Below, one piece after another: positions 26,207 through 39,366 of a stretch of DNA of 39,370 nt. Within the stretch, counting starts at the first letter, position 1. Every line of letters starts with the position of its first letter. The stretch comes from Lachnospiraceae bacterium (GTDB lineage Bacteria; Bacillota; Clostridia; Lachnospirales; Lachnospiraceae). The stretch spans positions 1 through 39,370 of the forward strand of contig JAGCXZ010000166.1 of NCBI GenBank assembly GCA_017961065.1, in the 5' to 3' direction. The notes beneath the pieces are model-generated. The model was given only the letters and a program-made list of their open reading frames with translations, had not been told where the DNA came from and searched no databases. Made by a program: the position numbers and the translations under genes.

Positions 26207-26935
26207 ATGATTGCAAAACTGAAAGATTTTAGGATCCTGTCAATTGCATTGCTTTACATTATCGGATTTCTCCCGTTTCTTACCGTTAAAGTTCCTATAG
26301 TAGGAGGCGCAATCAAAAAATCGGCATCCATGGTCGATCTGGCTGGTAATACCTTTGTAGCAACGGGGAAGATCTTCTATGTGGTTCCGATCGTTGTCAT
26401 TCTGCTGATCCTTTTCCTGGACCATAAGATCTCACCCAAACTGATCTATCTGGTTGCCGGCATCTTCGGCATCGGACTGACCCTCTTTACGGTCATCTTT
26501 ACGGGTAAACGGGTCGCTACCGGATACAAGCATGGTCCAAACATCGGTTTCTTCCTGGTTCTGGCTGTCTGGGTGTTTGTTTTGGTGTGGACATGCGTGA
26601 AGGATTTTGCGATCAGCAAAGATTCCATACAGCAGAACGGGATCAAAGCCGCGTTAACAGATGTTGCCAATCAGACATTGAAGGAAGCCGATATCGCACT
26701 GAACAATATGAAAAACATGAATTCCGGAAATTCCGCATCCGGAATGCCGGGTCCCGTTCCGAATGTCTTTTGCCCGTCATGCGGCAAGCCTGCCGGCGAA
26801 CCCGGCACGAAATTCTGCCCTTACTGCGGTGCCGTACTGGAAAGCACCCCTGTGCAAATGACATGCACAAATTGCGGCGCGGATTTGCAGCCCGGCACGA
26901 AATTCTGCAGAAAATGCGGAGCCAAGGTCCTTTGA
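26207..26935 (+). CDS. Membrane protein with a C-terminal double zinc-ribbon
   Basis: Four or more TM helices, then CPSCGKPAGEPGTKFCPYCGAVL and CTNCGADLQPGTKFCRKCGAKV. Confidence 0.7.
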   Translation: MIAKLKDFRILSIALLYIIGFLPFLTVKVPIVGGAIKKSASMVDLAGNTFVATGKIFYVVPIVVILLILFLDHKISPKLIYLVAGIFGIGLTLFTVIFTGKRVATGYKHGPNIGFFLVLAVWVFVLVWTCVKDFAISKDSIQQNGIKAALTDVANQTLKEADIALNNMKNMNSGNSASGMPGPVPNVFCPSCGKPAGEPGTKFCPYCGAVLESTPVQMTCTNCGADLQPGTKFCRKCGAKVL

Positions 26936-26988: not shown

Positions 26989-28788
26989 TTGAAACGTTTT
27001 GGAAAGAAAACCATCATCATACTGTGTGCGATCATAGCCGCCATTGCAATAGGCGGCTCTGTTGCTTTGGTTTTTATGCTTGAACGTAAGTCAGACAAGC
27101 CAGGCGATCATCAGGCCACCGAAGAAGCAGAGGAGCAAGCAGAGAACACCGCATCTGAGGAAGTTTCTGCTCCCGATCCTAAAAGCAATACGAATCATTT
27201 GGAAGCAAATCCGGAAGAGTCCGCATCTGAGGCAGATACAGTTGTCGAATATGTGGAAAGAAAAGTCATGATCAGGGACGCTTCCGCATCCTCCTATCTG
27301 AAAACCGTTTCACAGGACGGACAAACTTATGAGCCGTTTCATGTAATCGACGGCAATTACACAACTGCCTGGATCGAAGGAAAAGACGACCTGGGCATCG
27401 GAGAATCCCTTTCTTTTGATCTTGGAAACACGGAGCGGATCACAAGAATGCTGATCTATAACGGGTTTTTGAATACAAAGTACCGTTATGCCATCAATGG
27501 AAAGGTGACCCGTCTTCTTGTGGAATTTGATGACGGAACAAGCCAAACGGTGGACGTTAATACAATGTCGGCTCCCGATACCAAAGTTCCTTTTACAGAA
27601 TCAGAGCTGGGACCGACCGAAGTCATATTTGATGAACCCGTGAATGCTTCCGGCGTTAAACTGACTATTCTGGATGCTGTACAAGGCACAAAATACAAAG
27701 ATGTTTGCATTAGTGAAGTAGAGATTTATCACGAAGAGGAATCCTCGTCTGTTGATCAGGGTGAAGAAGTCGTAAACAATGATGTGATGCAGGCATATGA
27801 AGAATACTTCCAGAACAACTTTCCACCGACGGAGTACGGCGGCTATAAAGTGGCTTTTGCATTCATGGATCACGATGACATCCCAGAGCTGATTGTAGAA
27901 CAAGAATTCGATGAAAGCTTGTATACCATCCTCCAATACGACAACGGAACGATCTATACTCTGGGCGAATCGGGCATGATAAGCTATATCGAAAAAGGAA
28001 ATTTGATCCAACTTTCTTGGTGTGATGGGCAGGATAGCGAAGATGTTCTATATCGCATTTCCGGTCATACACTCGAACAGATCGAAGGAAAAGGCGCTTC
28101 GTACATCGATGACGGGATCATCAGGTATTACAGAATCGATGCAAACGGCAAAGAATCCGATATCTCAGAAGGGGAATACAACAATGCTTTCAATAACTAT
28201 CCGGGGAAATTCAGATCACCCAGTCCGTTCTGGAACTTCGTTCTGGAAGCCGGAATGTATATAAACAGCAAGCCCGCTCAGGTATTCCGGGCTTTCCTGG
28301 ATGATGCGATCAAAATGAACGGCAGAACTTATTCCGAGATGGCTAAAGAGTATTATAACGACCGCGGCCAGTCGCCCGACACTTATCTCTATGATGTGGA
28401 CGGAGATTATGAATATGAACTTCTGATCGACAATTACTACGGATTTGACATTTATGACTGTCGAAACGGAGAGCTTTGCCTGTTGGATTGCGGCGACGGT
28501 ACCGCTGCGATCTGCAACCTTTATCGAAAAGACGGCAAGGTATATGTAGGCCATGCCGACTTCCAGCACGCCGGCAGACAGACACTGGATCTCACGCGAT
28601 ATGACAGTGATGGGAAGGCTGTTGAAGAATTGAATCTCAATGCCGAGTACTGGGAGAACGAGAATGACCAATACGACAAAAACAGTGATTTTTCTTTCTG
28701 CGGTCAAAAGATCACCATGCAGGAATATGAACAGTATCTGAAAGATTTTGCGTATATAAATCCCTATGATATGCCGCGCATTAACTAG
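26989..28788 (+). CDS. Single-pass membrane protein with a discoidin/F5-F8-type-C-like domain
   Basis: TTG start. TM helix IIILCAIIAAIAIGGSVALVFML and an acidic linker. HVIDGNYTTAWIEGKDDLGIGESLSFDL...ISEVEIY resembles a discoidin/NedA-like carbohydrate-binding module. The rest is unknown. Confidence 0.65.
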   Translation: MKRFGKKTIIILCAIIAAIAIGGSVALVFMLERKSDKPGDHQATEEAEEQAENTASEEVSAPDPKSNTNHLEANPEESASEADTVVEYVERKVMIRDASASSYLKTVSQDGQTYEPFHVIDGNYTTAWIEGKDDLGIGESLSFDLGNTERITRMLIYNGFLNTKYRYAINGKVTRLLVEFDDGTSQTVDVNTMSAPDTKVPFTESELGPTEVIFDEPVNASGVKLTILDAVQGTKYKDVCISEVEIYHEEESSSVDQGEEVVNNDVMQAYEEYFQNNFPPTEYGGYKVAFAFMDHDDIPELIVEQEFDESLYTILQYDNGTIYTLGESGMISYIEKGNLIQLSWCDGQDSEDVLYRISGHTLEQIEGKGASYIDDGIIRYYRIDANGKESDISEGEYNNAFNNYPGKFRSPSPFWNFVLEAGMYINSKPAQVFRAFLDDAIKMNGRTYSEMAKEYYNDRGQSPDTYLYDVDGDYEYELLIDNYYGFDIYDCRNGELCLLDCGDGTAAICNLYRKDGKVYVGHADFQHAGRQTLDLTRYDSDGKAVEELNLNAEYWENENDQYDKNSDFSFCGQKITMQEYEQYLKDFAYINPYDMPRIN

Positions 28789-29877: not shown

Positions 29878-30285
29878 TTATTCTCTTGCCAAAAACTCTG
29901 CCGGAGCAAACGCAAGCACTTCGCTTTTTTTGAAATCTTTCACATTTCTCGTGATGATATGATCTGCATGGATTCGCCTGGCAGTAACGGCCTGTACTGC
30001 ATCCTCAAAATCATCCCACTTCAGTTCTGCAGCTGAATTGATATCGGATGCGGTCAGATCTGCAAGCGAAAAGATCAAGGATAGTTTTTTTATCACTTCC
30101 TCTGTCTTCTCAGGGCTCAGTTCTTTTCGCATGACATAAACCAAATTTGCAAATGTTAGAGCAGAAACATATCCTTCCGCCCGCTCTGTTTCACACATTT
30201 TCCAAATCTTTGCCGAATCTTCGTAATGCGGTTCTCTTTTCTGGAGGACATCGAGAAGAATGTTTCCGTCAATCAGTAATTTCAT
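29878..30285 (-). CDS. PIN-domain toxin (VapC-like) of a type II toxin-antitoxin pair
   Basis: MKLLIDGNILLDVL (Asp6), FEDAVQAV, IITRNVKDF. Overlaps the upstream antitoxin gene by 17 nt. Confidence 0.88.
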   Translation of the reverse strand: MKLLIDGNILLDVLQKREPHYEDSAKIWKMCETERAEGYVSALTFANLVYVMRKELSPEKTEEVIKKLSLIFSLADLTASDINSAAELKWDDFEDAVQAVTARRIHADHIITRNVKDFKKSEVLAFAPAEFLARE

Positions 30286-30517
30286 ATCTCTCCTTTAGTT
30301 CTTTCTCCTTCGCCTGGTCTATGTCCGTATCTCCTTTAAGGATTCCGGTAAGAGAATCCGTCAGATATGACACGGCTGCTGCTCGAGGTATAAACCGCCC
30401 TACTTCTTTGCCGTTTTTCGTAACGATAACTTCGCTGCCGCTCTGCACCAAAGCAAGATACCGGCCGAAGTTATTCTGCATCTCTGTTGCTGTAGCAGTT
30501 GCTGTATTTCCAATCAT
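30269..30517 (-). CDS. Phd/YefM-family antitoxin
   Basis: ATEMQNNFGRYLALVQSGSEVIVTKNGKEVGRFIP is a typical Phd/YefM N-terminal fold. GGAGGTG RBS. Confidence 0.85.
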   Translation of the reverse strand: MIGNTATATATEMQNNFGRYLALVQSGSEVIVTKNGKEVGRFIPRAAAVSYLTDSLTGILKGDTDIDQAKEKELKERYEITD

Positions 30518-30537
30518 GGTATCACCTCCGACTTTTA

Positions 30538-30577
30538 TTAGCTAATTTTATTATATCATTTTTTAGCTAATATGCAA
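30538..30577 (-). promoter_or_regulatory. Promoter (minus-sense TTGCAT-16-TATAAT) bracketed by two TTAGCTAA palindromes, the likely Phd/PIN autoregulatory operators
   Basis: TTAGCTAA at 30538..30545 and 30563..30570. -10 (plus-strand attata) at 30550..30555 and -35 (plus-strand atgcaa) at 30572..30577. Confidence 0.55.
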
Positions 30578-30612
30578 GTGTGACCGGATCTTGCTTAAAC
30601 CATGCGTTAAAC

Positions 30613-30643
30613 AAAAAAGGATCCGGAATTCCGGTTCCTTTTT
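30613..30643. terminator. Bidirectional terminator hairpin at the left end of repeat copy A
   Basis: AAAAAA-AAGGATCCGG-AATT-CCGGTTCCTT-TTT. Confidence 0.7.
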
Positions 30644-30822
30644 ACAGGGCTAGGAGGGCGCTAAACGTCCAGTGGACGTTTGTTAAGCGCCGACCGGAGC
30701 AGCGCGAAGAACGAACCTCCAAATGACGGAGTCAGAGAACCTTGCCTGTTGCCCTGAACATATTGTATTTATCATGCTTTTCAGCATTTCACGTTTTTTG
30801 ATTGACCTATGAATTGACCTAT
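30613..30822 (-). repeat. Copy A of a ~210-bp structured repeat, a candidate sRNA or 3'-UTR element ending in a rho-independent terminator
   Basis: About 95% identical by eye to 31754..31965. Nested stems CAGGGC/GCCCTG, GGAG/CTCC, GGCGCT/AGCGCC and AAACGTCC/GGACGTTT. Tandem ATTGACCTAT direct repeat at the right end. Confidence 0.85.
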
Positions 30823-30953
30823 CTTTTTTTCGAAATTTCTGTATAAATCGCTTCACTCTACTTATCGCAATCCAAACGCATCCTCAACGATTCTATCCAG
30901 ATATTCCTTCTTGGAAAAATCACTTCCGTCTGCAAAAAAAGCATTATATGCAA

Positions 30954-31127
30954 CTAATTCGCTGTCTCCTTCATCTTGTATTTCTTATCCAGATATTTCT
31001 TTGCATCTTCAAAAGTTATTTCACCATTCTTTTCCTTCTCTATATACTTTTTGAAATCCTCTGTTGGCTCTAGCCCATCGACCTTGATCATTCCGATGGC
31101 ATAGTCCCATGCCTGTGAATTTGTCAT
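30954..31127 (-). CDS. VbhA-like antitoxin-domain protein (57 aa), with no Fic partner in view
   Basis: AGGAGG plus a 7-nt spacer before ATG at 31127. AWDYAIGMIKVDGLEPTEDFKKYIEKEKNGEITFEDAKKYL matches the VbhA pattern (..EGLEPS.E......G.I....). Own promoter TTGAAG-18-TATAAT (plus-strand 31176..31205). Confidence 0.7.
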   Translation of the reverse strand: MTNSQAWDYAIGMIKVDGLEPTEDFKKYIEKEKNGEITFEDAKKYLDKKYKMKETAN

Positions 31128-31243
31128 ATGTCGACCTCCTATCATCGTTATCTGATACTCCATATTTGCGTTTATATTATACTCTCTTTTATTGCTGTGC
31201 TTCAATATCGTTTAATCATACTTTAAAAAGAAGAACAGGCTTT

Positions 31244-31678
31244 CTAAAGGTTCACAGTTTCTGAATCCAAATACACGTGCCTAAGATTATTATTCATACA
31301 GATAGCCTTGGAATCATCACAAAGATAATAACTCCATATAAGCACAAGCCGCATCATAAAATAAAAATAGCCCCAAAAATGCTTATATCCACAGTAAGCA
31401 CATCTATATGCAGCATACATATATACCAGTCCGGCGTCACTTAAACACTCATCAAATATTAAATTATTGTCCCTGATACCATGCGAAACCAGATAACTCT
31501 TGGCTTTTCTTATGGATAATTCATAGGAATACAAACTCATATATTCTGCAATCTTTTCTTCCGGCATCTGTTTCCTGACTTTTTCTATCCCTCTTGGGAT
31601 ATAGTATTCTTTCATCCTCCTTGCCATCTCCTTCTTTTTGAAATAGTCTTCATCATCTTTACTTTTTACTGTTCTCAC
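31244..31678 (-). CDS. Hypothetical protein, aromatic/Cys-rich (start uncertain: GTG 31678, ATG 31627 or ATG 31615)
   Basis: ORF downstream of an extended -10 TGGTACAAT (plus-strand 31725..31733). No family recognised. The segment DECLSDAGLVYMYAAYRCAYCGYKHFWGYFYFMMRLVLIW is faintly reminiscent of sigma-70 region 2. Confidence 0.45.
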   Translation of the reverse strand: MRTVKSKDDEDYFKKKEMARRMKEYYIPRGIEKVRKQMPEEKIAEYMSLYSYELSIRKAKSYLVSHGIRDNNLIFDECLSDAGLVYMYAAYRCAYCGYKHFWGYFYFMMRLVLIWSYYLCDDSKAICMNNNLRHVYLDSETVNL

Positions 31679-31753
31679 AATGCTAAAGTTCCTTTTTCCA
31701 ACGAATACTTTCCTGCAAATTGGAATTGTACCACATAAGATCATAAATGATAT

Positions 31754-31786
31754 AAAAAAAAGGAACCGACTCACCGGTTCCTTTTT
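31754..31786. terminator. Bidirectional terminator hairpin at the left end of repeat copy B
   Basis: A run, then AAGGAACCG-ACTCAC-CGGTTCCTT followed by TTT. Confidence 0.7.
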
Positions 31787-31965
31787 ACAGGGCTAGGAGG
31801 GCGCTGAACGTCCGGCGGACGTTCGTTAAGCGCCGACCGAAGCAGCGCGGAGACCGAACCTCCAAATGACAGAGTCAGAGAACCTTGCCTGTTGCCCTGA
31901 ACATATTGTATTTATCATGCTTTTCAGCATTTCATGTTTTTGGATTGACCTATGAATTGACCTAT
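31754..31965 (-). repeat. Copy B of the ~210-bp structured repeat, starting 11 nt after the HEPN stop codon
   Basis: Aligns with 30613..30822 with about ten substitutions. The inner stem becomes GAACGTCC/GGACGTTC, a compensatory double change relative to copy A. Confidence 0.85.
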
Positions 31966-31975
31966 TTTCAAAGTG

Positions 31976-32410
31976 TTATCTATATCCTTCCTTAACCAGA
32001 TCGGCATACCATTGATCAGCCTCTTCATAGCATCTCTTCAATGTATCTATTCTTACCACAAGATGAAGATCATAACGTCCGGTTGCTTCCCAGCGTGTTA
32101 TTATGTCTTTATTCTTATCAATATAAGATGGCATATTAATTGCAATGCCTAGAGAGTTTGCATAAACAAGCAAATCTTTAATGGAATGCTTATACATACG
32201 TGCGTTGTCGATCTTCTTTCCGGAAGCATATATCTGAATCTTGACCATCTTTTCGCACGCTTGCTGCAGATGATAAGCACCCTGACCCTTGATTGACTTT
32301 GACATTCTGGCAGAGGCCTTTTCGGCCTGCTCGATGGAGTACTTTGACAAGAGCAGATCAGCCTTTACTTGCGTCATTGAAAGAATATCATTTACATTAG
32401 TGACGGGCAT
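31976..32410 (-). CDS. HEPN-domain protein (partner of the minimal nucleotidyltransferase)
   Basis: YHLQQACEKMVKIQIY...YKHSIKDLL is a typical HEPN helix pattern. Overlaps the upstream MNT gene by 14 nt. Confidence 0.78.
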   Translation of the reverse strand: MPVTNVNDILSMTQVKADLLLSKYSIEQAEKASARMSKSIKGQGAYHLQQACEKMVKIQIYASGKKIDNARMYKHSIKDLLVYANSLGIAINMPSYIDKNKDIITRWEATGRYDLHLVVRIDTLKRCYEEADQWYADLVKEGYR

Positions 32411-32765
32411 AAATCAGTTCTCCATTTTCTATATCATCCATAATCAATCCTCTATATTGTTTACCGGAAACAAAGTATAAAAGATCATATGATTGTCCGG
32501 AATCGTCAAAAGAATATATCTGGCTGGTAAACCTGTCATATTTCTTTGATCTTAATGCCCTGTACTCTGTCTGATTGCCAAAGATCGCAAGGTCAATATC
32601 CGACTCCTCTTTACAGCTGTCTCTCACACTAGAGCCAAAAAGAACTATCCTGTCAATAAGATCACATTGACTGGCAGCATCAACAATATTTCTTATGTAT
32701 TTTTTCTTGATATCGGCAACTCTGATATTTCTGTCACCGATTTTCATTTTAACAACTTTACACAT
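32397..32765 (-). CDS. Minimal nucleotidyltransferase (MNT) domain protein
   Basis: Polymerase-beta-type NTase motif IVLFGSSVRDSCKEESDIDLAIFG. Confidence 0.85.
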   Translation of the reverse strand: MCKVVKMKIGDRNIRVADIKKKYIRNIVDAASQCDLIDRIVLFGSSVRDSCKEESDIDLAIFGNQTEYRALRSKKYDRFTSQIYSFDDSGQSYDLLYFVSGKQYRGLIMDDIENGELIYARH

Positions 32766-32918: not shown

Positions 32919-34232
32919 TTATACCGCTTCCTGCTCCGCAAACAGTCTCTCCATCTGCTCCTCGCTCAATTCCTCATGATATTCCTTTCTCTCCATAAAT
33001 CGCTTCTCATGAAGCTTATCCATATATTTCTTATGTTCCATCTGCCTTTTGTGCAAAGCGTCCACAGCTGCCTTTTCATCCGCTTTTCTCTTCCTTGCCC
33101 TTGCTTCCTGCCGCCGTCTTTCTTCCTGTCTCCTAGCGGCATTGCTTTGGCTTCGGTCGTCTGACGTTCTAATTTCCATAGTTGTATCATCACCGCTGAC
33201 CTTTATACCCTGACCATTTTGTTTCATGGACAGGTCTACATGCTGTATTGCACCTGCTCCTCCGCTTTCACGAAGAAAAACTCCCGTGGATCTGATCACT
33301 CCATCCCTGAAACCATCCGCTCCGCCAAGCGAAAACTCCGTCTGCTGTTCTCCAAGATATATGGCACCGATATCCGCTTCCTTCAGATCCATGAGTACAT
33401 CCTTTCCATTCTCATCCTTGCACCACACCTTAAGTTTTGAGAAGATCTCGTCGTTCTCATCGATCCATCCGTTACCGTCACTGTCATATTCGCGAAGCTC
33501 GCCAAATCCGTCACCGCTCTTTGTTCCAAACAGTTCGTTGCCGTCATCTATTTTTCCGTTCCCGTCCTTATCCAAAGCAAGAAATCCCGACCCCTTGCCA
33601 AGCATGGATATTTCATCCTCGATCCCGTCAGCATCAAGGTCAAACTTAAAAGTCTGATCCCGCACGTCCGCTGTGTTTGATCCTATGTTGACAATAAGCG
33701 GATCAAACAGCGCATCGGCCATAGTCGGAACACTCACGTTCATATATTCCATGTAGCTCCTGCTCATCAGGATATTCACGTTAAAATCGATCGTCCTTCC
33801 ATCCTCGGTACATGCTCTTCCGCAAGCATGAAATCCCATCTCTTCGACCTCTGAGTAAGTGACCATGCTCGAAGAATATCCGCCAATACCTGCTCCACCC
33901 ATCATTCCAAAAGATGCAAATCTCTTAAACATCGCGGCCAAGGTGTTGTTTTGAAAAGCCGATGCACTTGCTCCTGTTCCATACAAGCTTCCGGAAGTTA
34001 TTTTTCCAAGCCCCTTGAAATATCCGATATCATCCATATTGTACGCACCCATCCCATTGTTATTCTTACCGGATTGATACGTGTCCCTTGTAAGGGCAGT
34101 ATCTTTATTGGTTCCGTACCTATTGATCATTCCCATAAAACTGCTTTGATATCCGGCCAATCTGTTAGTTATTCCGGTCTGCGTATAGTTTCTTCCCGAT
34201 AACATGTTTACTGTGCTGTCTGCTATTCTCAT
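32919..34232 (-). CDS. 437-aa protein with EF-hand-like DxDxDG calcium-binding repeats and a highly charged coiled-coil tail; no signal peptide
   Basis: GGAGG RBS. FDLDADGIEDEIS, LDKDGNGKIDDGNELFG and YDSDGNGWIDENDEIF repeats. C-terminus RRQEERRRQEARARKRKADEKA. Gly/Ser/Asn-rich N-terminus. Confidence 0.75.
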   Translation of the reverse strand: MRIADSTVNMLSGRNYTQTGITNRLAGYQSSFMGMINRYGTNKDTALTRDTYQSGKNNNGMGAYNMDDIGYFKGLGKITSGSLYGTGASASAFQNNTLAAMFKRFASFGMMGGAGIGGYSSSMVTYSEVEEMGFHACGRACTEDGRTIDFNVNILMSRSYMEYMNVSVPTMADALFDPLIVNIGSNTADVRDQTFKFDLDADGIEDEISMLGKGSGFLALDKDGNGKIDDGNELFGTKSGDGFGELREYDSDGNGWIDENDEIFSKLKVWCKDENGKDVLMDLKEADIGAIYLGEQQTEFSLGGADGFRDGVIRSTGVFLRESGGAGAIQHVDLSMKQNGQGIKVSGDDTTMEIRTSDDRSQSNAARRQEERRRQEARARKRKADEKAAVDALHKRQMEHKKYMDKLHEKRFMERKEYHEELSEEQMERLFAEQEAV

Positions 34233-34264
34233 GTTTCTACCTCCAGTTATTTGTTGTTTTCAAT

Positions 34265-34301
34265 AAAAAACTGCGTCCAAAGTTCAATCCTTTGAACGCA
34301 G
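34265..34301 (-). terminator. Strong intrinsic terminator between the 729-aa and 437-aa genes
   Basis: Minus-sense CTGCGTTCAAAG-GATTGAA-CTTTGGACGCAG (12 bp, one G-U pair) followed by TTTTTT. Only ~32 nt (34233..34264) separate the T run from the 437-aa start codon. Confidence 0.8.
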
Positions 34302-34363
34302 CAACCTTCCTTAGCTTTTATTATGATTTTTAACAGTATTATGTCTCAGATCTCTGTGAGGTT

Positions 34364-36553
34364 CTAGATTATGCTCATCTCCATGAGTTTTTCTATAAAA
34401 CGCTCATAGAAGGCTCTCTCTTTCTCCCTCGCCGCAAGTACTTTCGAACCCCTTGTTGTATCAGGCTCGAGAGGATGGTCAAGAGCATAAATAGCGTCCT
34501 GCGCCGCCTGGATGGCCGAGTTTACCGTACTCCCCAGAACATCATCAGGATCATATCCGTTATACTGGCGGATAAATCGCTGTATCATAAACTGTGGGAT
34601 ATGATCGAGTGTTCCGGAAGCCGATAATCCCTGTCCGTCCATGCCAATTTCATCTGCAGCATCCAACCAGGCATTTTTTACGTTCTCCGAAGCATTCTTT
34701 CCAATACCCAGAAATGCCTGTTCTCTCATTGCACGGACCTTATCCCTGGAATCTGTGGATGTTTTATCTCCTGTACTGTTTATGCCCAGAGCTCTCTGGT
34801 TTGCTTCTATTTGGGCATTCCAGTTATCCCACATTTCCTGCTCCGTAAATACCCTGCCGATAAAATGAGTGTTATTGATATATTCTGCAAAAGGCTCGGT
34901 CAAGAGATCTCCCAGATTCTTGCCCTCCTGTAACCCCTTCTCAACATTTATCTTTCCGTTATCGGTGGAATCGAAATATGCACGGAATCCGTCAATATCA
35001 AAATCATCCTTCATGAAATCCTTCCAGAACTTCTCCTGTGGAGCGAACGTTAGATTCTGATCCTTGGAAAAACTATTTAGAAACTTCTGAACCTTTTCAT
35101 AACTGTCCGGGGAATCATAAGTTAGACTCCATAAATCCCTCTGCGATATCTTTCCCCCTTCATCTTTTATTTCCTTACAGGAAATCCCCTTATCAGTATA
35201 GGCTGTGATATATCTGGTATTCACCGGAACAATCTCACCGGTATCAGGATTCGTGTACTGATTGTGTTTTGAAACAATTGTTTCGGATATCGGATCGGTT
35301 GTGTTGTCAGAATCGACATATCCGTTTTTCAAAGCGCTGATCTTTTCCCTGGTCTCAACATCATTGAGATCCGCAAACAAGAGCGAGAATGCTTCTTCAG
35401 AGAATCCGCTTCCCCTCATTGCCCTGTCGAAAAAAGAGTTTATGGCGTCAAATATCTTATTCGCAAGACTTGCAAGAGAAGGCGCCGAATCACTGTACTC
35501 TTCAGCATACTGGCCTAACAAGCTGACACGATCTCCTCTGTCAAATATCCCGTCGAAATAGCTTGTATCCGTAAAATAGCTACTTGCTATCAGATCAGCA
35601 GTTTCATCCGTCTGCCTGATATACATGCACATTGCCACAAACTCAGGGTAATCCATATCCTTCGGATCCAGCTCATACGGATCAAATACTCTTTCGAACG
35701 CCTCGCCGTTTTCATCAATGCCTGTTATCGTATATGTTTTATCCTTGCCGTCAGAATTGATGATTATATTGAATGACTGCTCCGTTTCCCTGTAAGAATA
35801 GATCACTTCTCCATTGGAATTCTGCTGTACATAAGACTCCTTGGTCTTGATATTGGCTGTAATGAACCTGGTGTATGCAGCCGGATCTCCATATCCTTTG
35901 CTGGCAATCGGAATACATGTGGCATCCATGTCACTTGACACCTCACTTTTCCTAGATACTTCTGTGATCATGTTCGTGCCATTATCAAGCCTTGTTTCTG
36001 CCCAACGTTCAAGTCCGGCAACAATGTTCTCACAGTTAAGTCCTTGATCATATGCCTGCGGAATGCCTAAAAATGTCTCTTTTGCATTTTGCAGTATCGC
36101 GGTCCAGTCTCTGTTCTTTGTCCATGCCATATCAGGATCGGAAAGATTACTGCAAAATCCATTATATTCCGCCTGTGCCCCATACGCTGTCATTTTTCCG
36201 AACGATTTAATGCCGGTATTATCGATAAGCCCCTTATCATCCATATAACTCATCAGTGCGAACATCTCCACTTTTGTAGCATTATGCGGATCAACATCAT
36301 TTACTCTAACCTCATAATCTCCGACTTTGATGATAGGATCTTCTTCTGTTGATGAGTCCGCATATTGGGCAATATACCCTATGTTACCAATCGTCATAAC
36401 TCCGATATTTTTACCTTGGTCAGATGAAGCGGTCCGTGAAGTAGCACTCCCCATAAATTCTTGCCCGATAGAGTCCTCTCCACGATTTGATTTCGAGCCA
36501 AAGCTTCCATACTGGTACGTTTGATTAAAACTTGTTTGTACTGCAAATGACAT
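34364..36553 (-). CDS. 729-aa protein of unknown function; no signal peptide, TM helix or recognisable catalytic motif
   Basis: AGGAGG plus an 8-nt spacer before ATG at 36553 (MSFAVQTSFNQ...). The upstream in-frame extension of the 772-aa ORF has no RBS and crosses the leader hairpin. Confidence 0.75.
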   Translation of the reverse strand: MSFAVQTSFNQTYQYGSFGSKSNRGEDSIGQEFMGSATSRTASSDQGKNIGVMTIGNIGYIAQYADSSTEEDPIIKVGDYEVRVNDVDPHNATKVEMFALMSYMDDKGLIDNTGIKSFGKMTAYGAQAEYNGFCSNLSDPDMAWTKNRDWTAILQNAKETFLGIPQAYDQGLNCENIVAGLERWAETRLDNGTNMITEVSRKSEVSSDMDATCIPIASKGYGDPAAYTRFITANIKTKESYVQQNSNGEVIYSYRETEQSFNIIINSDGKDKTYTITGIDENGEAFERVFDPYELDPKDMDYPEFVAMCMYIRQTDETADLIASSYFTDTSYFDGIFDRGDRVSLLGQYAEEYSDSAPSLASLANKIFDAINSFFDRAMRGSGFSEEAFSLLFADLNDVETREKISALKNGYVDSDNTTDPISETIVSKHNQYTNPDTGEIVPVNTRYITAYTDKGISCKEIKDEGGKISQRDLWSLTYDSPDSYEKVQKFLNSFSKDQNLTFAPQEKFWKDFMKDDFDIDGFRAYFDSTDNGKINVEKGLQEGKNLGDLLTEPFAEYINNTHFIGRVFTEQEMWDNWNAQIEANQRALGINSTGDKTSTDSRDKVRAMREQAFLGIGKNASENVKNAWLDAADEIGMDGQGLSASGTLDHIPQFMIQRFIRQYNGYDPDDVLGSTVNSAIQAAQDAIYALDHPLEPDTTRGSKVLAAREKERAFYERFIEKLMEMSII

Positions 36554-36573
36554 GTTTGAGCCCTCCTTTTGAG

Positions 36574-36631
36574 TAATAAAACAGCGCCTGATTTCAGTTT
36601 CACTCCATTGAAATCCGACGCTGTCCATAGC
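36574..36631 (-). promoter_or_regulatory. Conserved leader hairpin plus U-tract (attenuator-like), copy 1
   Basis: Minus-sense GCTATGGA-CAGCGTCGGATTTCA-ATGGAGTGAAAC-TGAAATCAGGCGCTG-TTTTATT. 15-bp stem with one mismatch and one G-U. About 75% identical to 38738..38794. Confidence 0.55.
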
Positions 36632-36680
36632 ATTTATTTTTCGGTTGTATGATTTGGTTATCGGTTCATTCCTAAGATTC

Positions 36681-36733
36681 ATTATACGTTCAGCATAAAC
36701 AGACCATAAAATATCATAAAACGACTATAAGAT
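36681..36733 (-). promoter_or_regulatory. LytTR-type paired direct repeats plus TATAAT: promoter of the 729-aa gene
   Basis: Minus-sense ATCTTATAGTCG-TTTTATGAT-ATTTTATGGTCT, then 14 nt, then TATAAT (plus-strand attata at 36681..36686). Repeat starts are 21 bp apart. The distal repeat overlaps the kinase stop codon. Confidence 0.6.
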
Positions 36734-38005
36734 GGTCACGGCAGTAAACTCTTTTTCATCACAGGAGATTGCAAAACTGCCTTCATACTTATCGATCACG
36801 CCTTGAACATTTGACAACCCGATCCCTTGTCCGTCCCTTGAACCGTTCTGCACCTGGTTATCTGTAATATCCACCTTTTGAACGACCGGATTCCTTACAG
36901 TAAAGATTATCCCGGAATCCTTCTCAACAAGTTTCACCTGTATAGATGCAGATCTCCCGCACGTCTTCACTTTTTTACATTCATGTATTGCGTTTTCAAG
37001 AAGATTTCCCATAACTATGACAATATCATCATCCGAAAGACGAATATTGCACATATCACTGATGGTAAAGACCATTCCTATATCTTCACTTTTGGCAATC
37101 CGATAAAACTGATTTAGAACAGCATTTACAACAGGATGTCCGGTGTTGACTTCCGACATTTCCACAGCGATGCTTTTCGTCAATTGTTCCGTGAACTCTA
37201 TAGCCGCCTCCACGTCTCCGTTTTTTAACAATTCCTCAACAGTAGCCAGTTGTTTTTTATAATCATGAAGTTTCCGGCCCTGCCGTTCATAAAGAGACTG
37301 CATATCGTGAAAAGCCCGAAGCTGATTCTGTTTGCTCTCTATCTGTACCTCAGATAAACGCAATTTTTCATCTTTAATCAACGAATCTTGCAATAGGAAC
37401 ATGGAAAAAATGTTTACCGCAAGCAACACAGCCGAAACTATTCCTTGAAAAATCCCAACGCCAGCCGGTGACACAAAAAACATATAAAAAAACATTCCCA
37501 CAATCATTGTAACAAGCGGTACCCATATGTACGATCTCAGCATCACATGTTCTTTTTTCAAGCATTCCTTAACTCGATGCAGCTTTTTTCGAAGAACAAA
37601 CTCTATACAAAATGCAATTAGGCAGGACAAACACGCCATTAGATTTAAAAAAGTCGGATTATTGCTTCGGCTAAGCTGAAGCGGCACACATACCAGAATC
37701 TGTGTAAGGATTTGTAAAAGTACTGCCGCACCGGAAAAGAATACGCTCATGATCCAATCAGATCTGTAACAGATCCTGACAAAAAGCATATGTATTGCAA
37801 TATATGTTATCAGTTTTATCGAATAATATTCATTTGGTATCTTTTCAAACAGCGCAGAATTTCCGCCTACAGAAAGCGCAAGCAGAATAAACGAAATCAG
37901 TTTTTGAATCTTCCCCCATTTAAAAAAAATAAAGGAATCATAATAATAGATGCACAGTGCTGTTTCAAATACACAAGTGCTTATAAATACCAACCATGCA
38001 GTCAT
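36725..38005 (-). CDS. AgrC/ComD-like (HPK10) membrane histidine kinase with a GHKL ATPase domain
   Basis: About six N-terminal TM helices, a coiled linker, then GNLLENAIHE ... DGQGIGLSNV (HATPase_c_5-like). 4-nt overlap with the LytTR regulator gene. Confidence 0.85.
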   Translation of the reverse strand: MTAWLVFISTCVFETALCIYYYDSFIFFKWGKIQKLISFILLALSVGGNSALFEKIPNEYYSIKLITYIAIHMLFVRICYRSDWIMSVFFSGAAVLLQILTQILVCVPLQLSRSNNPTFLNLMACLSCLIAFCIEFVLRKKLHRVKECLKKEHVMLRSYIWVPLVTMIVGMFFYMFFVSPAGVGIFQGIVSAVLLAVNIFSMFLLQDSLIKDEKLRLSEVQIESKQNQLRAFHDMQSLYERQGRKLHDYKKQLATVEELLKNGDVEAAIEFTEQLTKSIAVEMSEVNTGHPVVNAVLNQFYRIAKSEDIGMVFTISDMCNIRLSDDDIVIVMGNLLENAIHECKKVKTCGRSASIQVKLVEKDSGIIFTVRNPVVQKVDITDNQVQNGSRDGQGIGLSNVQGVIDKYEGSFAISCDEKEFTAVTIL

Positions 38006-38712
38006 AGTTTTTTCCCCTCATACAGTGTATACTCCTGTTTAACCTGCTTATATCTGGCTTTTGGTACCGATATCTGTCTATCATTATCAAGCGTCAGGAT
38101 ATAACTGTTGATATTTCTGATATGCTCCATATTCACAAGAAAGCTTTTATGTGTCCTCAAAAAGCCCTGCGCCTTGAGCCGTTCCTCAAGTTCTTCCAGT
38201 TTTTCATAGATCTGGTATGTCCGATCCTTCAGTTGAATCAAACACTTATGCCCTTCTGTTTCAATCAAGATGATCTCTGATGTCTTCAACCGAATATTTC
38301 CTTCAACGCAGTCAAAGCAAATCGTCTTGGATCTTCTTTGCAGTTCATTGCAGATATCATCCATACATTCTGAAAATGTACGATAAAGGTCATCCTTGAT
38401 CAGAAAGCGACTCGCTCGCACCTTGTATCCGTCCAATGCAAAGCTCATAAACGATGTCACAAGAATGATCGGAACATCTTCAAGTCTCTCCCGGATTCTT
38501 TTGGCTACTGTCAGACCATCCATCGCGTCCATATTGATATCCAAAAAAATGATATCCACAGTTTTCCCTTTGCGGATGGCATCAAGCATTTCGACACCTG
38601 ATCGATATCCTGATACCGCAAATTCCATATGATTTTTCCTAGCATATTCGTCAATAAGCGTTTTCAGCCTTGCAATGTCCTCTAAATCATCGTCACAAAT
38701 AAAAACCTTCAT
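38002..38712 (-). CDS. LytTR-family response regulator (AgrA/ComE-like)
   Basis: Receiver MKVFICDDD...IIFLDINMDAMDG. C-terminal LytTR domain (IILIETEGHKCLIQL...FLRTHKSFLVNMEHI). Confidence 0.9.
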   Translation of the reverse strand: MKVFICDDDLEDIARLKTLIDEYARKNHMEFAVSGYRSGVEMLDAIRKGKTVDIIFLDINMDAMDGLTVAKRIRERLEDVPIILVTSFMSFALDGYKVRASRFLIKDDLYRTFSECMDDICNELQRRSKTICFDCVEGNIRLKTSEIILIETEGHKCLIQLKDRTYQIYEKLEELEERLKAQGFLRTHKSFLVNMEHIRNINSYILTLDNDRQISVPKARYKQVKQEYTLYEGKKL

Positions 38713-38737
38713 AATCTCCCCGCTTTCATTTTTCTGG

Positions 38738-38794
38738 AAAAATAAACAGCGCCGGTCTCAATGCTCAATCCATTGATCTGGCGCCATCCATAGC
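38738..38794 (-). promoter_or_regulatory. Conserved leader hairpin plus U-tract (attenuator-like), copy 2
   Basis: Minus-sense GCTATGGATGGCGCCAGATCAATGGATTGAGCATTGAGACCGGCGCTGTTTATTTTT. Stems GGCGC/GCGCC and TCAATG/CATTGA. It sits between the repeats and the regulator RBS. Confidence 0.5.
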
Positions 38795-38843
38795 TTCTGA
38801 ACCATATATAATCTATTTATTCTATCGTCTCAAGATTTCCTGA

Positions 38844-38898
38844 AATAAACCCCTATTGCGTGAATCGACTATAATATGACATAAAACGACCATAATAT
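38844..38898 (-). promoter_or_regulatory. LytTR-type paired direct repeats upstream of the LytTR/kinase operon (autoregulation)
   Basis: Minus-sense ATATTATGGTCG-TTTTATGTC-ATATTATAGTCG, starts 21 bp apart (plus-strand 38866..38877 and 38887..38898). A weak -10 candidate TTTATT lies 16 nt downstream. Confidence 0.55.
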
Positions 38899-38979
38899 AC
38901 GAATCGGGCCACAAAAACGTGACCCGAAAGGATGTATATTGAATGGTAGTACCATACAATACCTGTTAAGATTTCTCTT

Positions 38980-39366
38980 CTACGAAATCACGGCGTGCTG
39001 CCGTCTGTATGTGTCATTATCTTTCTGAACGAGTTCCATTTCTACCTGACGGAGTTCAACCGCTATTTCTTTCTTTTTTTGCTCATTTGCCATGTTCATT
39101 TCCTGCTCCAAACGAGCTTTCTTTTCTTTCAGTTCCCTTATCTCACGATCAACCCGGTCCGTGTTCATTGTAGTCGATTCGCTCTTCTTAGAATCCTCAG
39201 AAACCTTTTTCCCTGATTCAGAAAGTGACGCAACATATGATTTTGCTGAATTCTGCATTTCCTCAGCAAAGCCCTCAGGGATCTTCTCCGGTTCATAATA
39301 CCTGATGTCGCCTCTTCCCATCTCCAGTTTGATATCCTGAAGCCTATTTACGGCCTTGGCAACCAT
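38980..39366 (-). CDS. Charged coiled-coil protein (FlxA-like?); the true start may lie beyond the right window edge
   Basis: ORF rich in E/K/Q heptad-like sequence (REIRELKEKKARLEQEMNMANEQKKKEIAVELRQVEMEL). The first Met is only 4 nt from the window end. Confidence 0.45.
   Translation of the reverse strand: MVAKAVNRLQDIKLEMGRGDIRYYEPEKIPEGFAEEMQNSAKSYVASLSESGKKVSEDSKKSESTTMNTDRVDREIRELKEKKARLEQEMNMANEQKKKEIAVELRQVEMELVQKDNDTYRRQHAVIS

What the first reader, a model, noticed from the sequence alone, without database searches (positions are those of the whole stretch)
36574..36631. Conserved terminator-like leader hairpin between promoter and RBS in both LytTR-box modules (second copy 38738..38794)
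Seen in sequence. About 57 nt are shared between the two leaders, with ~75% identity by eye.
- Copy 1: GCTATGGACAGCGTCGGATTTCAATGGAGTGAAACTGAAATCAGGCGCTGTTTTATT
- Copy 2: GCTATGGATGGCGCCAGATCAATGGATTGAGCATTGAGACCGGCGCTGTTTATTTTT

Both fold into a GC-clamped hairpin followed by a U-rich tract, with a shared CAATGGA in or near the loop. Both sit downstream of the putative -10 and upstream of the Shine-Dalgarno sequence. A generic terminator would not need this much primary-sequence conservation.

Inference. This could be a transcription attenuator needing an unknown antiterminator or ligand. It could instead mark the 3' end of a short LytTR-induced sRNA of roughly 100 nt, or a protein-binding site. 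I do not recognise it as a known riboswitch or T-box.
Basis: partly seen in the sequence, partly recalled or inferred. Interest (0 to 1): 0.62.

Follow-up and report, generated by a model that had tools for sequence, protein, structure and literature searches.

The report
Leader terminator carrying two GGA loops
The hairpin is real: it occurs three times in this window and more than a hundred times in gut and rumen Lachnospiraceae, as a transcription stop signal just after the promoter that also displays two loops resembling docking sites for the RNA-binding regulator CsrA. It matches no family in the Rfam RNA catalogue, and its function is untested.

Summary
The two hairpins (36631..36575 and 38794..38738, minus strand) are 70% identical, while the spacer between the boxes and the hairpin is 38% identical. 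A third copy lies at 34315..34262, between the DUF8329 and SPM genes.

A covariance model and a metagenome scan found about 120 distinct copies. All lie on the coding strand, in front of genes of one uncharacterised Lachnospiraceae regulon.

Covariation supports two helices:
- a 3-bp mini-hairpin (GCU-ANGGAN-RGC);
- an abutting GC-rich hairpin followed by a U tract, with CA(A)NGGAN(U)UGA at its apex.

The two GGA triplets are always 18-21 nt apart. The loops fit the CsrA/RsmE consensus and dual-site spacing. No Rfam family matches, including TwoAYGGAY.

The promoter in front is not a TATAAT promoter. In 94 of 110 copies it reads T[T/A]AA-N16-GCCGATAW, the flagellar sigma-28 type. In the window it sits 30-31 nt after the LytTR repeats.

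My best reading is a promoter-proximal attenuator read by a protein that binds GGA loops, most likely CsrA. Forming the mini-hairpin removes the terminator base in copies A and B. CsrA binding, the transcription start and actual termination are all inferred, not shown.

The parts
36694..36728 (-). Module A: two direct repeats (ATAGTCGTTTTATG at 36728..36715, ATGGTCTGTTTATG at 36707..36694) with a 21-nt period. Putative LytTR response-regulator boxes. Box 1 overlaps the stop codon of the kinase gene.
   Evidence: LytTR regulator and GHKL kinase encoded immediately upstream
36658..36686 (-). The predicted start is near 36650.
   Evidence: family matrix T[T/A]AA-N16-tGCCGATA[T/A] in 94 of 110 copies; fixed 30-31 nt from box 2; Butyrivibrio sigma-28 consensus TAAA-N16-17-MCGATAa (PMC3720852). 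Start site not mapped.
36620..36631 (-). Copy A, mini-hairpin P0: GCU-AUGGAC-AGC (first GGA at 36626..36624).
   Evidence: covariation of the three pairs across the family
36575..36626 (-). Copy A, terminator hairpin (36626..36579 in the minimum-energy fold). The apex is UUUCAAUGGAGUGAAA (36613..36598, second GGA at 36606..36604). The U tract is at 36581..36575.
36551..36569 (-). Shine-Dalgarno AAAGGAGGG (36569..36561) and ATG (36553..36551) of the 729-aa DUF8329 protein.
38859..38893 (-). Module B: direct repeats ATGGTCGTTTTATG (38893..38880) and ATAGTCGATTCACG (38872..38859) with a 21-nt period.
38822..38827 (-). Module B: weak sigma-28-like -10 (CGATAG), 31 nt after box 2. No good -35.
38738..38794 (-). 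Copy B of the leader element. P0 is GCU-AUGGAU-GGC (38794..38783, GGA at 38789..38787). The terminator hairpin has apex AUCAAUGGAUUGAG (38777..38764, GGA at 38771..38769). The U tract is at 38746..38738. The element precedes the LytTR regulator and kinase operon (ATG at 38712).
34262..34315 (-). P0 is GCU-AAGGAA-GGU (34315..34304, GGA at 34310..34308). The hairpin is at 34302..34270, with apex GUUCAAAGGAUUGAAC (34297..34282, GGA at 34290..34288). The U tract starts at 34270. It lies between the DUF8329 stop codon (34364) and the SPM gene ATG (34232).
34338..34343 (-). CATAAT upstream of copy C, a possible weak -10. LytTR-like repeats inside the end of the DUF8329 gene (34408..34371) have a 23-nt period and are doubtful.
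36725..38712 (-). LytTR response regulator (38712..38002) and GHKL/HATPase_c_5 histidine kinase (38005..36725). This is the operon led by copy B.
32919..36553 (-). Genes led by copies A and C: DUF8329 protein (36553..34364) and a 437-aa protein with a FrpC-type self-processing module (34232..32919).

Best explanation
**What it is.** The finding is one copy of a modular 5' leader RNA of about 55 nt. The window holds three copies: A at 36631..36575, B at 38794..38738 and C at 34315..34262, all on the minus strand.

**Where it starts.** Transcription starts 0 to about 20 nt upstream, from a sigma-28 (SigD)-type promoter. In modules A and B this promoter lies 30-31 nt downstream of two LytTR direct repeats.

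**What the RNA contains.**
- A 3-bp mini-hairpin (P0) that presents an A-N-GGA-N hexaloop.
- Directly abutting it, a GC-rich hairpin followed by a U tract, which is an intrinsic terminator. Its apex presents a second A-N-GGA-N flanked by UCA and UGA.
- The gene's Shine-Dalgarno sequence follows, with the start codon a median of about 40 nt after the first four U's of the tract.

**How it most likely works.**
- By default the long hairpin forms and most transcripts end at the U tract. This gives a short leader RNA and keeps the gene low.
- A dimeric protein that recognises GGA in short hairpin loops binds the two loops, which lie 18-21 nt apart, as they emerge from the polymerase. The best candidate is CsrA, which motile Lachnospiraceae encode in their flagellar locus.
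- Protein-stabilised P0 holds the RGC nucleotides that otherwise form the base of the terminator next to the U tract. This favours read-through into the gene.
- The terminated leader still carries both loops, so it could also titrate the same protein.

**Shown.** The sequence family, both helices, the U tract, the loop conservation and spacing, the position relative to the promoter motifs, and the strand.

**Inferred.** The transcription start, actual termination, the identity of the binding protein, and whether binding raises or lowers expression.
For: **Copies and chance.** There are three copies in the window against 0.00 expected.

**Model hits.**
- The covariance model R1 finds 36 sites in 14 sources, namely the window and 13 genome loci, and 109 sites in 95 metagenome loci.
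- These sites are 121 distinct sequences in all, and every one lies on the coding strand.
- Reverse-strand scores are 15-17 bits against 75-80.

**Covariation.**
- Genome set: 89.8% of cells are paired against 75.7% in shuffles. There are 81 double-change cells against 23.7, and 0 of 500 shuffles reach this.
- Sliding the partner columns drops pairing to 37-59%.
- Metagenome set: 92.4% paired, with 217 double-change cells against 65.
- The third pair of P0 is U-A in 18, U-G in 7, C-G in 3 and A-U in 2, and 97.9% of P0 cells are paired.

**Loops.**
- The P0 loop is always A-N-GGA-N.
- The apex is CA(A)NGGAN(U)UGA in 111 of 118 copies.
- The GGA-to-GGA distance is 18-21 nt, median 20.

**Fit to CsrA.**
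- The CsrA SELEX consensus is RUACARGGAUGU, with GGA in a hexaloop on a stem of at most 4 bp.
- One dimer bridges two sites 10-63 nt apart, with an optimum near 18 nt (PMC7652899).
- The predicted CsrA site of C. difficile fliC is TGACAAGGATGT (PMC8523840).
- Some copies read UCAAGGAUGA or UCAUGGAUGA exactly.

**Promoter.**
- T[T/A]AA-N16-tGCCGATA[T/A] is found in 94 of 110 copies. The distance to P0 is never below 12 nt.
- This matches the Butyrivibrio sigma-28 consensus. csrA lies in the flagellar locus of the motile Eubacterium and Roseburia genomes that were examined (PMC3720852).
- One copy leads a DUF6240-flagellin-FliS operon.

**Competition between P0 and the terminator.** Enforcing P0 costs 10.4 kcal/mol in copy A and 8.7 in copy B, and unpairs the nucleotides next to the U tract. 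Family-wide the median cost is 6.8 kcal/mol, and 68 of 105 copies cost at least 5.

**Read-through.** A rumen metatranscriptome contig spans leader and coding sequence (L002 5598..6456).
Against: - No binding, start-site or termination data exist. The RNA evidence is assembled contigs only, and it is noisy. Some contigs start upstream of the predicted start, and one library covers the locus uniformly.
- In copy C and about 12% of the family, P0 and the terminator do not compete (0.8 kcal/mol). Antitermination through P0 therefore cannot be the whole story.
- In the fold supported by covariation, the first G of the apical GGA is paired. The alternative UCA/UGA hexaloop hairpin is compatible in 93% of cells but has no covariation for or against it.
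- No csrA, fliW or flagellar gene lies in the window or in the DUF8329 loci.
- Other DUF6240-flagellin operons lack the element.
- Known CsrA action in Firmicutes is translational repression at the Shine-Dalgarno sequence, not control of an intrinsic terminator.
- GGA loops could serve another protein.
Confidence: 0.45

Rival explanations
1. The short terminated leader is itself the main product. It would be a small RNA of about 45-80 nt, driven by the sigma-28/LytTR promoter, with two GGA loops and a terminator. It would act as a sponge for CsrA, as RsmZ or CsrB do, or as proposed for TwoAYGGAY. The downstream gene would be expressed only by leak-through.
For: The architecture (GGA hairpins plus a terminator) is that of known sponge RNAs. 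There are 3-5 copies per locus. TwoAYGGAY RNAs of Clostridia were proposed as CsrA sponges on the same kind of evidence (PMC4333381). C. jejuni flaA mRNA both binds and titrates CsrA (PMC4894983, abstract).
Against: Every copy is tightly coupled to a downstream gene. The start codon lies within 40 nt of the U tract in 51% of copies and within 70 nt in 79%. No free-standing copy was found. The downstream genes are well expressed in rumen metatranscriptomes, so read-through is substantial. Two sites per RNA make a weak sponge.
Confidence: 0.2
2. CsrA is not involved. The loops are read by another protein, perhaps an unknown one encoded in the regulon, that acts as antiterminator or terminator helper in the manner of LicT/RAT, PyrR or TRAP.
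For: The loop conservation and fixed spacing call for a dimeric reader but do not name it. The regulon is full of uncharacterised families, namely the 191-aa family, DUF6033, the 307-aa family and LytTR-only proteins. Most apices carry one extra nucleotide on each side compared with the CsrA consensus.
Against: No recognisable RNA-binding domain was found in the neighbouring genes. The A-N-GGA-N hexaloop on a short stem is the specific signature of CsrA/RsmE (PMC7652899).
Confidence: 0.15
3. It is an ordinary terminator or insulator. It ends transcription of the upstream gene in a compact tandem array. Its sequence conservation reflects recent duplication and folding requirements only.
For: Promoter elements begin at, or inside, the end of the upstream gene. 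Box A1 overlaps the kinase stop codon, and copy C lies 50 nt after the DUF8329 stop. The only room for a terminator is therefore downstream of the promoter. Some relatives place a plain terminator right after a CCGAAAT motif.
Against: The stems have diverged completely between copies while the loops, P0 and the GGA spacing are kept. That pattern indicates selection on the loops, not recent duplication. The hairpin would stop the promoter's own transcripts as well. P0 has no role in a plain terminator, yet it covaries.
Confidence: 0.1
4. It is a 5' stabiliser and translation-control element. The hairpins near the 5' end would protect the mRNA from 5'-dependent decay. CsrA bound to them, and to the GGA in the Shine-Dalgarno sequence, would repress translation as in hag. 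The U tract would be incidental.
For: In the shortest leaders P0 sits at the predicted +1 (minimum distance 12 nt from the CGATA motif). B. subtilis hag has one upstream CsrA site and one on the Shine-Dalgarno sequence, about 25 nt apart (PMC8523840). The apical GGA lies 30-40 nt from the Shine-Dalgarno sequence.
Against: The U tract directly after the stem is present in the copies found without requiring it. Many leaders have 15-20 unpaired nucleotides 5' of P0, which would not protect the end.
Confidence: 0.07
5. It is a DNA-level operator (a palindrome bound by a repressor), or a short upstream reading frame starting at the AUG in GCUAUGGA.
For: The stems are inverted repeats. AUG is present in copies A and B.
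Against: G-U pairs occur on the coding strand only; they would be A-C mismatches on the other strand. Model scores are strongly strand-specific. The AUG position reads AAG, ACG or AGG in most copies. The frames differ between copies, and no Shine-Dalgarno sequence precedes the AUG.
Confidence: 0.03

Closest known systems
TwoAYGGAY RNA motif (Rfam RF01731; human gut, Clostridiales, gamma-proteobacteria)
   Same: Both have two hairpin loops with A-Y-GGA-Y type sequences. The window copies read AUGGAC/AUGGAU and AUGGAG/AUGGAU. Both occur in gut Clostridia. CsrA binding was proposed for TwoAYGGAY from the loop motif alone (PMC4333381).
   Different: The Rfam model gives no match, even at E <= 10 in the window and E <= 1 in 16 further loci. 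Here the second loop caps an intrinsic terminator. The element is always a 5' leader of a gene, whereas TwoAYGGAY was classed as not cis-regulatory (PMC2864571). Family-wide the variable position is any base, and AAGGA is as common as AUGGA. The tandem G-A pairs described for TwoAYGGAY were not looked for here.
CsrA sites in flagellin mRNA leaders (B. subtilis hag, C. difficile fliC, C. jejuni flaA)
   Same: A sigma-28/SigD-type promoter, GGA motifs in short hairpin loops in the 5' leader, and two sites within bridging distance. One copy leads an operon that contains a flagellin gene.
   Different: Those leaders have no intrinsic terminator, and their second site covers the Shine-Dalgarno sequence. 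Here both sites lie upstream of a U tract. The genes are mostly not flagellar (DUF8329, SPM, LytTR regulators and others). CsrA binding is untested.
CsrB/RsmZ-type sponge RNAs
   Same: GGA-loop hairpins followed by a Rho-independent terminator. The terminated leader would have this form.
   Different: Only two sites per RNA. The element is embedded in an mRNA leader. It occurs in a lineage that, judging by its motile relatives, controls CsrA through FliW. The review notes it is unknown whether FliW and sRNAs ever act together (PMC7652899).
Protein-dependent leader attenuators (LicT/SacY-RAT, PyrR, TRAP)
   Same: A weak upstream hairpin shares nucleotides with the 5' base of a stronger terminator, and could win only when a protein holds it.
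   Different: The overlap is only 3-7 nt and is absent in about 12% of copies. The loop motif is unlike RAT, PyrR or TRAP sites. No such regulator is encoded nearby.
agr-type LytTR promoters (P2/P3, with RNAIII as the regulatory RNA output)
   Same: A LytTR regulator and kinase operon preceded by its own boxes (autoregulation). A second boxed promoter drives effector genes and possibly a regulatory RNA.
   Different: No AgrB or AgrD genes. The -10 is of sigma-28 type rather than sigma-A type. The conserved RNA is a 55-nt leader, not a 500-nt RNAIII.

Membership tests
Intrinsic (Rho-independent) terminator used as a 5' leader attenuator | GC-rich stem-loop directly followed by a U tract on the transcribed strand | tested here: met
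   Folds of -20 to -24 kcal/mol with U tracts. The stem is supported by covariation in two independent sets.
Intrinsic (Rho-independent) terminator used as a 5' leader attenuator | Lies between the transcription start and the start codon of the regulated gene | tested here: inconclusive
   It lies downstream of conserved promoter motifs (at least 12 nt after CGATA) and upstream of the Shine-Dalgarno sequence in all copies. The start site was not mapped, and the RNA contigs are ambiguous.
Intrinsic (Rho-independent) terminator used as a 5' leader attenuator | A competing structure or factor that permits read-through | tested here: inconclusive
   P0 competes with the terminator base in copies A and B (about 9-10 kcal/mol) and in 68 of 105 family members (at least 5 kcal/mol), but not in copy C. 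No RNA-only antiterminator was found.
Intrinsic (Rho-independent) terminator used as a 5' leader attenuator | Transcripts actually end at the U tract | not testable with these tools
   Only assembled contigs of size-selected libraries were available.
CsrA/RsmA binding site | GGA in the loop of a short hairpin, typically an A-N-GGA-N hexaloop on a stem of 4 bp or fewer | tested here: met
   P0 is a 3-bp stem with an A-N-GGA-N loop in all copies, with covariation. At the apex the GGA sits at the tip, but its first G is paired in the fold supported by covariation. The hexaloop alternative is possible but not tested by covariation.
CsrA/RsmA binding site | Two sites 10-63 nt apart (optimum about 18) for one dimer | tested here: met
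   The distance is 18-21 nt, median 20, in 111 copies, although the search pattern allowed up to 26. The criterion is from PMC7652899.
CsrA/RsmA binding site | The organism encodes CsrA (and FliW in Firmicutes) | not tested
   No csrA was found in the window or the held loci, and whole genomes could not be fetched. The literature reports csrA in the flagellar locus of the motile Eubacterium and Roseburia genomes examined (PMC3720852).
CsrA/RsmA binding site | Direct binding and an effect of csrA on expression | not testable with these tools
   This requires experiments.
TwoAYGGAY RNA (RF01731) | Match to the Rfam covariance model | tested here: not met
   No hit at the gathering score or at E <= 10 (window) or E <= 1 (16 loci).
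TwoAYGGAY RNA (RF01731) | Two terminal loops reading AYGGAY | tested here: inconclusive
   The window loops are AUGGAC, AUGGAU, AAGGAA (P0) and AUGGAG, AUGGAU, AAGGAU (apex). Family-wide the second position is any base.
LytTR (AgrA/ComE-type) regulated promoter | Two imperfect direct repeats with a 21-nt period, upstream of the core promoter, with a LytTR regulator encoded nearby | tested here: met
   Met for modules A and B. Doubtful for copy C (23-nt period, inside coding sequence). Only 24% of family members have boxes of this sequence type.
Sigma-28 / SigD promoter | TAAA-N15-17-(G)CCGATAW | tested here: met
   Family matrix T[T/A]AA-N16-tGCCGATA[T/A] in 94 of 110 copies. Module A reads TAAT-N16-CCGATAA. 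Module B is weak (CGATAG). Copy C does not fit (CATAAT). Consensus from PMC3865298 and PMC3720852. Dependence on the sigma factor was not tested.
Riboswitch or T-box | Match to a known aptamer model, or a multi-helix core with conserved unpaired nucleotides | tested here: not met
   No Rfam match. The element consists of two simple hairpins.

The most novel reading that the evidence does not exclude
These leaders would be the first RNA-level partners of CsrA beyond flagellin mRNA in a FliW-type Firmicute. They would act as leader RNAs, driven by sigma-28 and quorum-sensing (LytTR) promoters, that both sense and titrate CsrA through a terminator switch. They would tie a large, uncharacterised regulon to the assembly state of the flagellum. 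That regulon consists of proteins without signal peptides, including calcium-triggered 'clip-and-link' SPM proteins, possibly exported through the flagellar apparatus.
Probability: 0.15. Interest if true: 0.85.

Novelty: new variant of a known kind. Interest (0 to 1): 0.66.

Why it matters
- **An undescribed RNA family.** If the reading holds, this is a widespread cis-regulatory RNA family of abundant rumen and gut bacteria. I found more than 120 distinct copies in cattle, sheep, deer, equid, rodent and human gut samples.
- **A new way for a CsrA-type protein to act.** The protein would act on an intrinsic terminator at the very start of a transcript, rather than on a ribosome-binding site.
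- **An open question becomes testable.** It is not known whether RNA antagonists and FliW ever act together on CsrA (PMC7652899).
- **It delimits a regulon.** The element marks a coherent, highly expressed regulon of unknown function: DUF8329, FrpC-like self-processing proteins, DUF6033, DUF6240-flagellin, and LytTR regulators. That regulon could now be studied as a unit.
The element would still be a clean case of a terminator whose loops are under stronger selection than its stems, and so a handle for finding the protein that reads them.

Tried and rejected
- **Rfam.** Gathering and permissive E-value scans of the window and 24 loci matched nothing relevant, including TwoAYGGAY and Termite-flg.
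- **Phage database.** No match for the region.
- **Short reading frame at the AUG of GCUAUGGA.** Rejected. The frames differ between copies, and the AUG reads AAG, ACG or AGG in most copies.
- **DNA palindrome or operator.** Rejected on the G-U asymmetry and the strand-specific model scores.
- **TATAAT at 36686..36681 as the -10.** Rejected. It would put the boxes at about -54 to -20, and family-wide only T[T/A]AA is conserved at that position.
- **-10-like AT-rich octamer just before P0 as the promoter.** Rejected, because a start there would delete P0, which covaries.
- **RNA-only antiterminator.** I looked for pairing between the 5' spacer and the terminator arms. The matches were short and inconsistent, and I dropped the idea.
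- **Alternative apical hairpin UCA/UGA.** It is compatible, but its sequence is invariant, so covariation cannot test it.
- **Metatranscriptome contigs for 5' and 3' ends.** They were too coarse. Suggestive ends lie at L002:2452, 3424 and 8231 and at L009:5382, but other contigs begin upstream of the promoter.
- **Flagellar genes, csrA or fliW in all held loci.** Only one locus has a flagellin gene.
- **Leaders of other DUF6240-flagellin operons.** They lack the element.
- **Pfam on about 40 neighbouring proteins.** Almost all are DUFs or have no match.
Full report
**1. The observation**

All genes in this part of the window are on the minus strand. In order they are:
- a small DUF7226-like gene (39366..38980);
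- a LytTR response regulator (38712..38002);
- a GHKL/HATPase_c_5 histidine kinase (38005..36725);
- a 729-aa DUF8329 protein (36553..34364);
- a 437-aa protein (34232..32919).

In an alignment of the two intergenic regions:
- the hairpin segment is 40/57 identical (70%);
- the direct repeats are 74% identical;
- the 68 columns between repeats and hairpin are 38% identical;
- the sequence after the hairpin is 28% identical.

Both segments fold into GC-clamped hairpins followed by U-rich tracts: -21.4 kcal/mol (z = -4.2) and -23.9 kcal/mol (z = -2.9). The minus-strand RNA is more stable than its complement because of G-U pairs.

**2. A third copy and a large family**

A loose pattern search across the window and 25 related genome loci turned up a third copy at 34315..34262, between the DUF8329 and SPM genes. 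It also found many copies in relatives. Their stems are entirely different, but they share GCYAWGGA at the 5' edge, CAAWGGA at the apex, and a T tract. In the window the combined motif occurs three times, against 0.00 expected.

A covariance model built from 14 copies finds:
- exactly three sites in the window;
- 36 sites in 14 sources (the window and 13 genome loci);
- every site on the strand of the downstream gene;
- reverse-strand scores of 15-17 bits against 75-80.

A metagenome pattern scan returned 95 further stretches, from cattle, sheep, deer, equid, rodent and human gut samples. The model finds 109 sites in them. Together this gives 121 distinct sequences.

**3. Structure**

Counting pairs on the genome set gives:
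- 89.8% standard pairs, against 75.7% in shuffles;
- 81 cells changed on both sides, against 23.7;
- 0 of 500 shuffles reaching any measure;
- only 37-59% pairing when the partner columns are slid.

The metagenome set gives 92.4% pairs and 217 double changes against 65.

Two helices are supported. The first is a 3-bp mini-hairpin, P0, reading GCU-ANGGAN-RGC. Its third pair is U-A (18), U-G (7), C-G (3) and A-U (2), with no A-C. The second is a stem of 13-16 bp that ends at the U tract.

The variable base of the apical AWGGA covaries with the 3' arm. In the supported fold the first apical G is therefore paired, and the loop is GANUGAN. A UCA/UGA hairpin that would expose the apical A-N-GGA-N as a hexaloop is possible in 93% of cells. 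Its sequence is invariant, so covariation says nothing about it.

**4. What is conserved**

- The P0 loop is A-N-GGA-N in every copy. The second position takes all four bases.
- The apex is CA(A)NGGAN(U)UGA in 111 of 118 copies.
- The two GGA triplets are 18-21 nt apart, median 20, although the pattern allowed 18-26.
- The start codon follows the first four U's of the tract within 40 nt in 51% of copies and within 70 nt in 79%.

The stems have drifted freely while the loops and their spacing have not. This is the pattern expected of a protein-binding element mounted on a terminator.

**5. The promoter**

I aligned the upstream sequences on a recurring CGATA motif. This gives T[T/A]AA-N16-tGCCGATA[T/A] in 94 of 110 distinct copies. 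By chance, about 13% would contain a CGAWA.

This is the SigD/sigma-28 consensus:
- B. subtilis: TAAA-N13-16-GCCGATAW (PMC3865298);
- Butyrivibrio fibrisolvens: TAAA-N16-17-MCGATAa (PMC3720852).

The motif keeps a fixed 30-31 nt from the second direct repeat. Its distance to P0 varies from 12 to about 33 nt and is never shorter than 12. It therefore belongs to the promoter, not to the RNA element, and P0 can sit at the very 5' end of the transcript.

In the window:
- Module A reads TAAT-N16-CCGATAA.
- Module B has a weak CGATAG.
- Copy C has only CATAAT, with no convincing repeats.

The direct repeats have the 21-nt period typical of LytTR regulators (A: 36728..36694; B: 38893..38859). They precede both the regulator operon and its neighbour. 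Only 24% of family members have repeats of this sequence type. The leader element is therefore linked to the sigma-28-type promoter more generally than to these boxes.

**6. Gene context**

The element precedes:
- DUF8329 proteins and SPM proteins;
- LytTR regulators and LytTR-only proteins;
- a 191-aa family and a 307-aa family;
- DUF6033 proteins, and a very large protein with a signal peptide;
- in one lineage, a DUF6240-flagellin-FliS operon.

Other DUF6240-flagellin operons lack it. Most products have polar N-termini without signal peptides. The SPM protein aligns with the calcium-dependent self-processing module of FrpC (PDB 6SJW, E = 1e-6). No csrA, fliW or flagellar structural gene lies in the window or in the DUF8329 loci.

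Rumen metatranscriptome contigs show relatives of the DUF8329 and SPM genes expressed at depths of hundreds. One contig runs from upstream of the promoter through the leader into the coding sequence. Contig ends fall at the first base of P0 (L002:2452), directly after a U tract (L002:3424), and near a predicted sigma-28 start (L009:5382). Others begin further upstream. I treat the RNA data as showing expression and read-through only.

**7. Mechanism**

A short stem with an A-N-GGA-N hexaloop is the signature of CsrA/RsmE sites. The SELEX consensus is RUACARGGAUGU, with stems of at most 4 bp. One dimer bridges two sites 10-63 nt apart, with an optimum near 18 nt (PMC7652899). The fliC site predicted in C. 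difficile is TGACAAGGATGT (PMC8523840). Some copies here read UCAAGGAUGA or UCAUGGAUGA. The motile Eubacterium and Roseburia genomes that were examined carry csrA in the flagellar locus, and their flagellin genes use sigma-28 promoters (PMC3720852).

P0 alone is too weak to form against a -20 kcal/mol hairpin, yet it covaries, so something must stabilise it. Enforcing P0 costs 10.4 kcal/mol in copy A and 8.7 in copy B. It also unpairs the nucleotides next to the U tract. In copy C it costs only 0.8. Family-wide the median cost is 6.8 kcal/mol.

My preferred reading is a protein-dependent attenuator. By default the terminator forms. A dimer that binds GGA loops, probably CsrA, captures P0 and the apex as they emerge and favours read-through. 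The terminated leader could titrate the same protein. The sign of the effect, and the identity of the protein, are inferences.

**8. Comparison with known systems**

- **TwoAYGGAY (RF01731).** This is the closest described motif in appearance and in proposed partner. However, the Rfam model does not match at any threshold tried, and TwoAYGGAY was not classed as cis-regulatory (PMC2864571).
- **Flagellin leaders (hag, fliC, flaA).** They share the sigma factor type and the GGA loops. They have no terminator, and they place one site on the Shine-Dalgarno sequence.
- **CsrB/RsmZ.** They share the hairpins-plus-terminator layout but are free-standing and have many sites.
- **RAT-type antiterminators.** They share the logic of overlapping hairpins but not the motif.

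I file the element as a new variant of a known kind: a terminator-based leader read through protein-binding loops. As an RNA family it matches nothing in Rfam.

**9. Verdict**

- I consider the structural and comparative claims close to certain (about 0.9).
- The sigma-28 promoter assignment is likely (about 0.7).
- The antitermination direction is uncertain (about 0.35).

Noticed in passing
window 32919..34232 (-): The 437-aa protein carries a FrpC-type calcium-dependent self-processing module (Pfam SPM; PDB 6SJW, E = 1e-6, residues 196-304). An Asp-Pro bond lies in LFDPLIV just upstream of the module. The C-terminal tail is highly charged, and there is no signal peptide.
   Followed up: partly
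L002:~5925-5995; also L003, L006, L019, L020, L026, L011 (not in the window): In many DUF8329 leaders a second conserved structured segment follows the terminator: CCGCUCGGACCUUUCCGGAGAGCGG-UGCAGCUCUGACUGACAGAUGAGCUGCGGAAAGGAG. Its CCUUUCC is complementary to the Shine-Dalgarno GGAAAGG, so it may sequester the ribosome-binding site. Rfam gives no match.
   Followed up: partly
window 38901..38925 (-): Upstream of the module B repeats lies a hairpin GGGTCACG-TTTTT-GTGGCCC that runs into CCGATTC. In L006 (around 660-700) the same hairpin runs into CCGATAA and directly precedes a leader element. This may be a decayed sigma-28 promoter.
   Followed up: no
L122:9905-14533; L124-L127: A conserved operon DUF6240 - flagellin - FliS, with the flagellin start overlapping or abutting the DUF6240 stop, lies next to a Flp/Tad-type pilus cluster. 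Only the L122/L114 lineage carries the leader element. L124 and L126 have CCGAAAT-AAAA followed at once by a plain terminator hairpin.
   Followed up: partly
L002:4065 (run X29): A strain in a rumen metatranscriptome carries a 21-nt insertion, ATTTTATAGTCGTTTCATGGT. That is one extra LytTR box unit, so the number of boxes varies between strains.
   Followed up: no
L002:3424 (run X28): An RNA contig with adaptor sequence begins exactly one base after the U tract of a leader element. It could be a processing site, or a reverse-transcriptase stop at the hairpin.
   Followed up: no
window 29878..32765 (-): A nucleotidyltransferase (32765..32397) overlaps a 144-aa gene with no Pfam match (32410..31976), which may be a toxin-antitoxin pair. 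A PIN-domain gene lies at 30285..29878.
   Followed up: no
window 26989..28788 (+): A 599-aa protein has an NAD-glycohydrolase translocation domain and an F5/8 type C domain, next to a zinc-ribbon protein (26207..26935).
   Followed up: no
L050:1714-1839 (-): A sub-threshold match to Clostridiales-1 RNA (36.4 bits, gathering score 48, E = 1.6e-4) in a human-gut contig that also carries the leader element.
   Followed up: no
window 38715..38750 (-): In the full-leader fold of copy B, the U tract plus CC (UUUUUCC) pairs with the Shine-Dalgarno GGGGAGA. In read-through transcripts the tract could therefore mask the ribosome-binding site.
   Followed up: no
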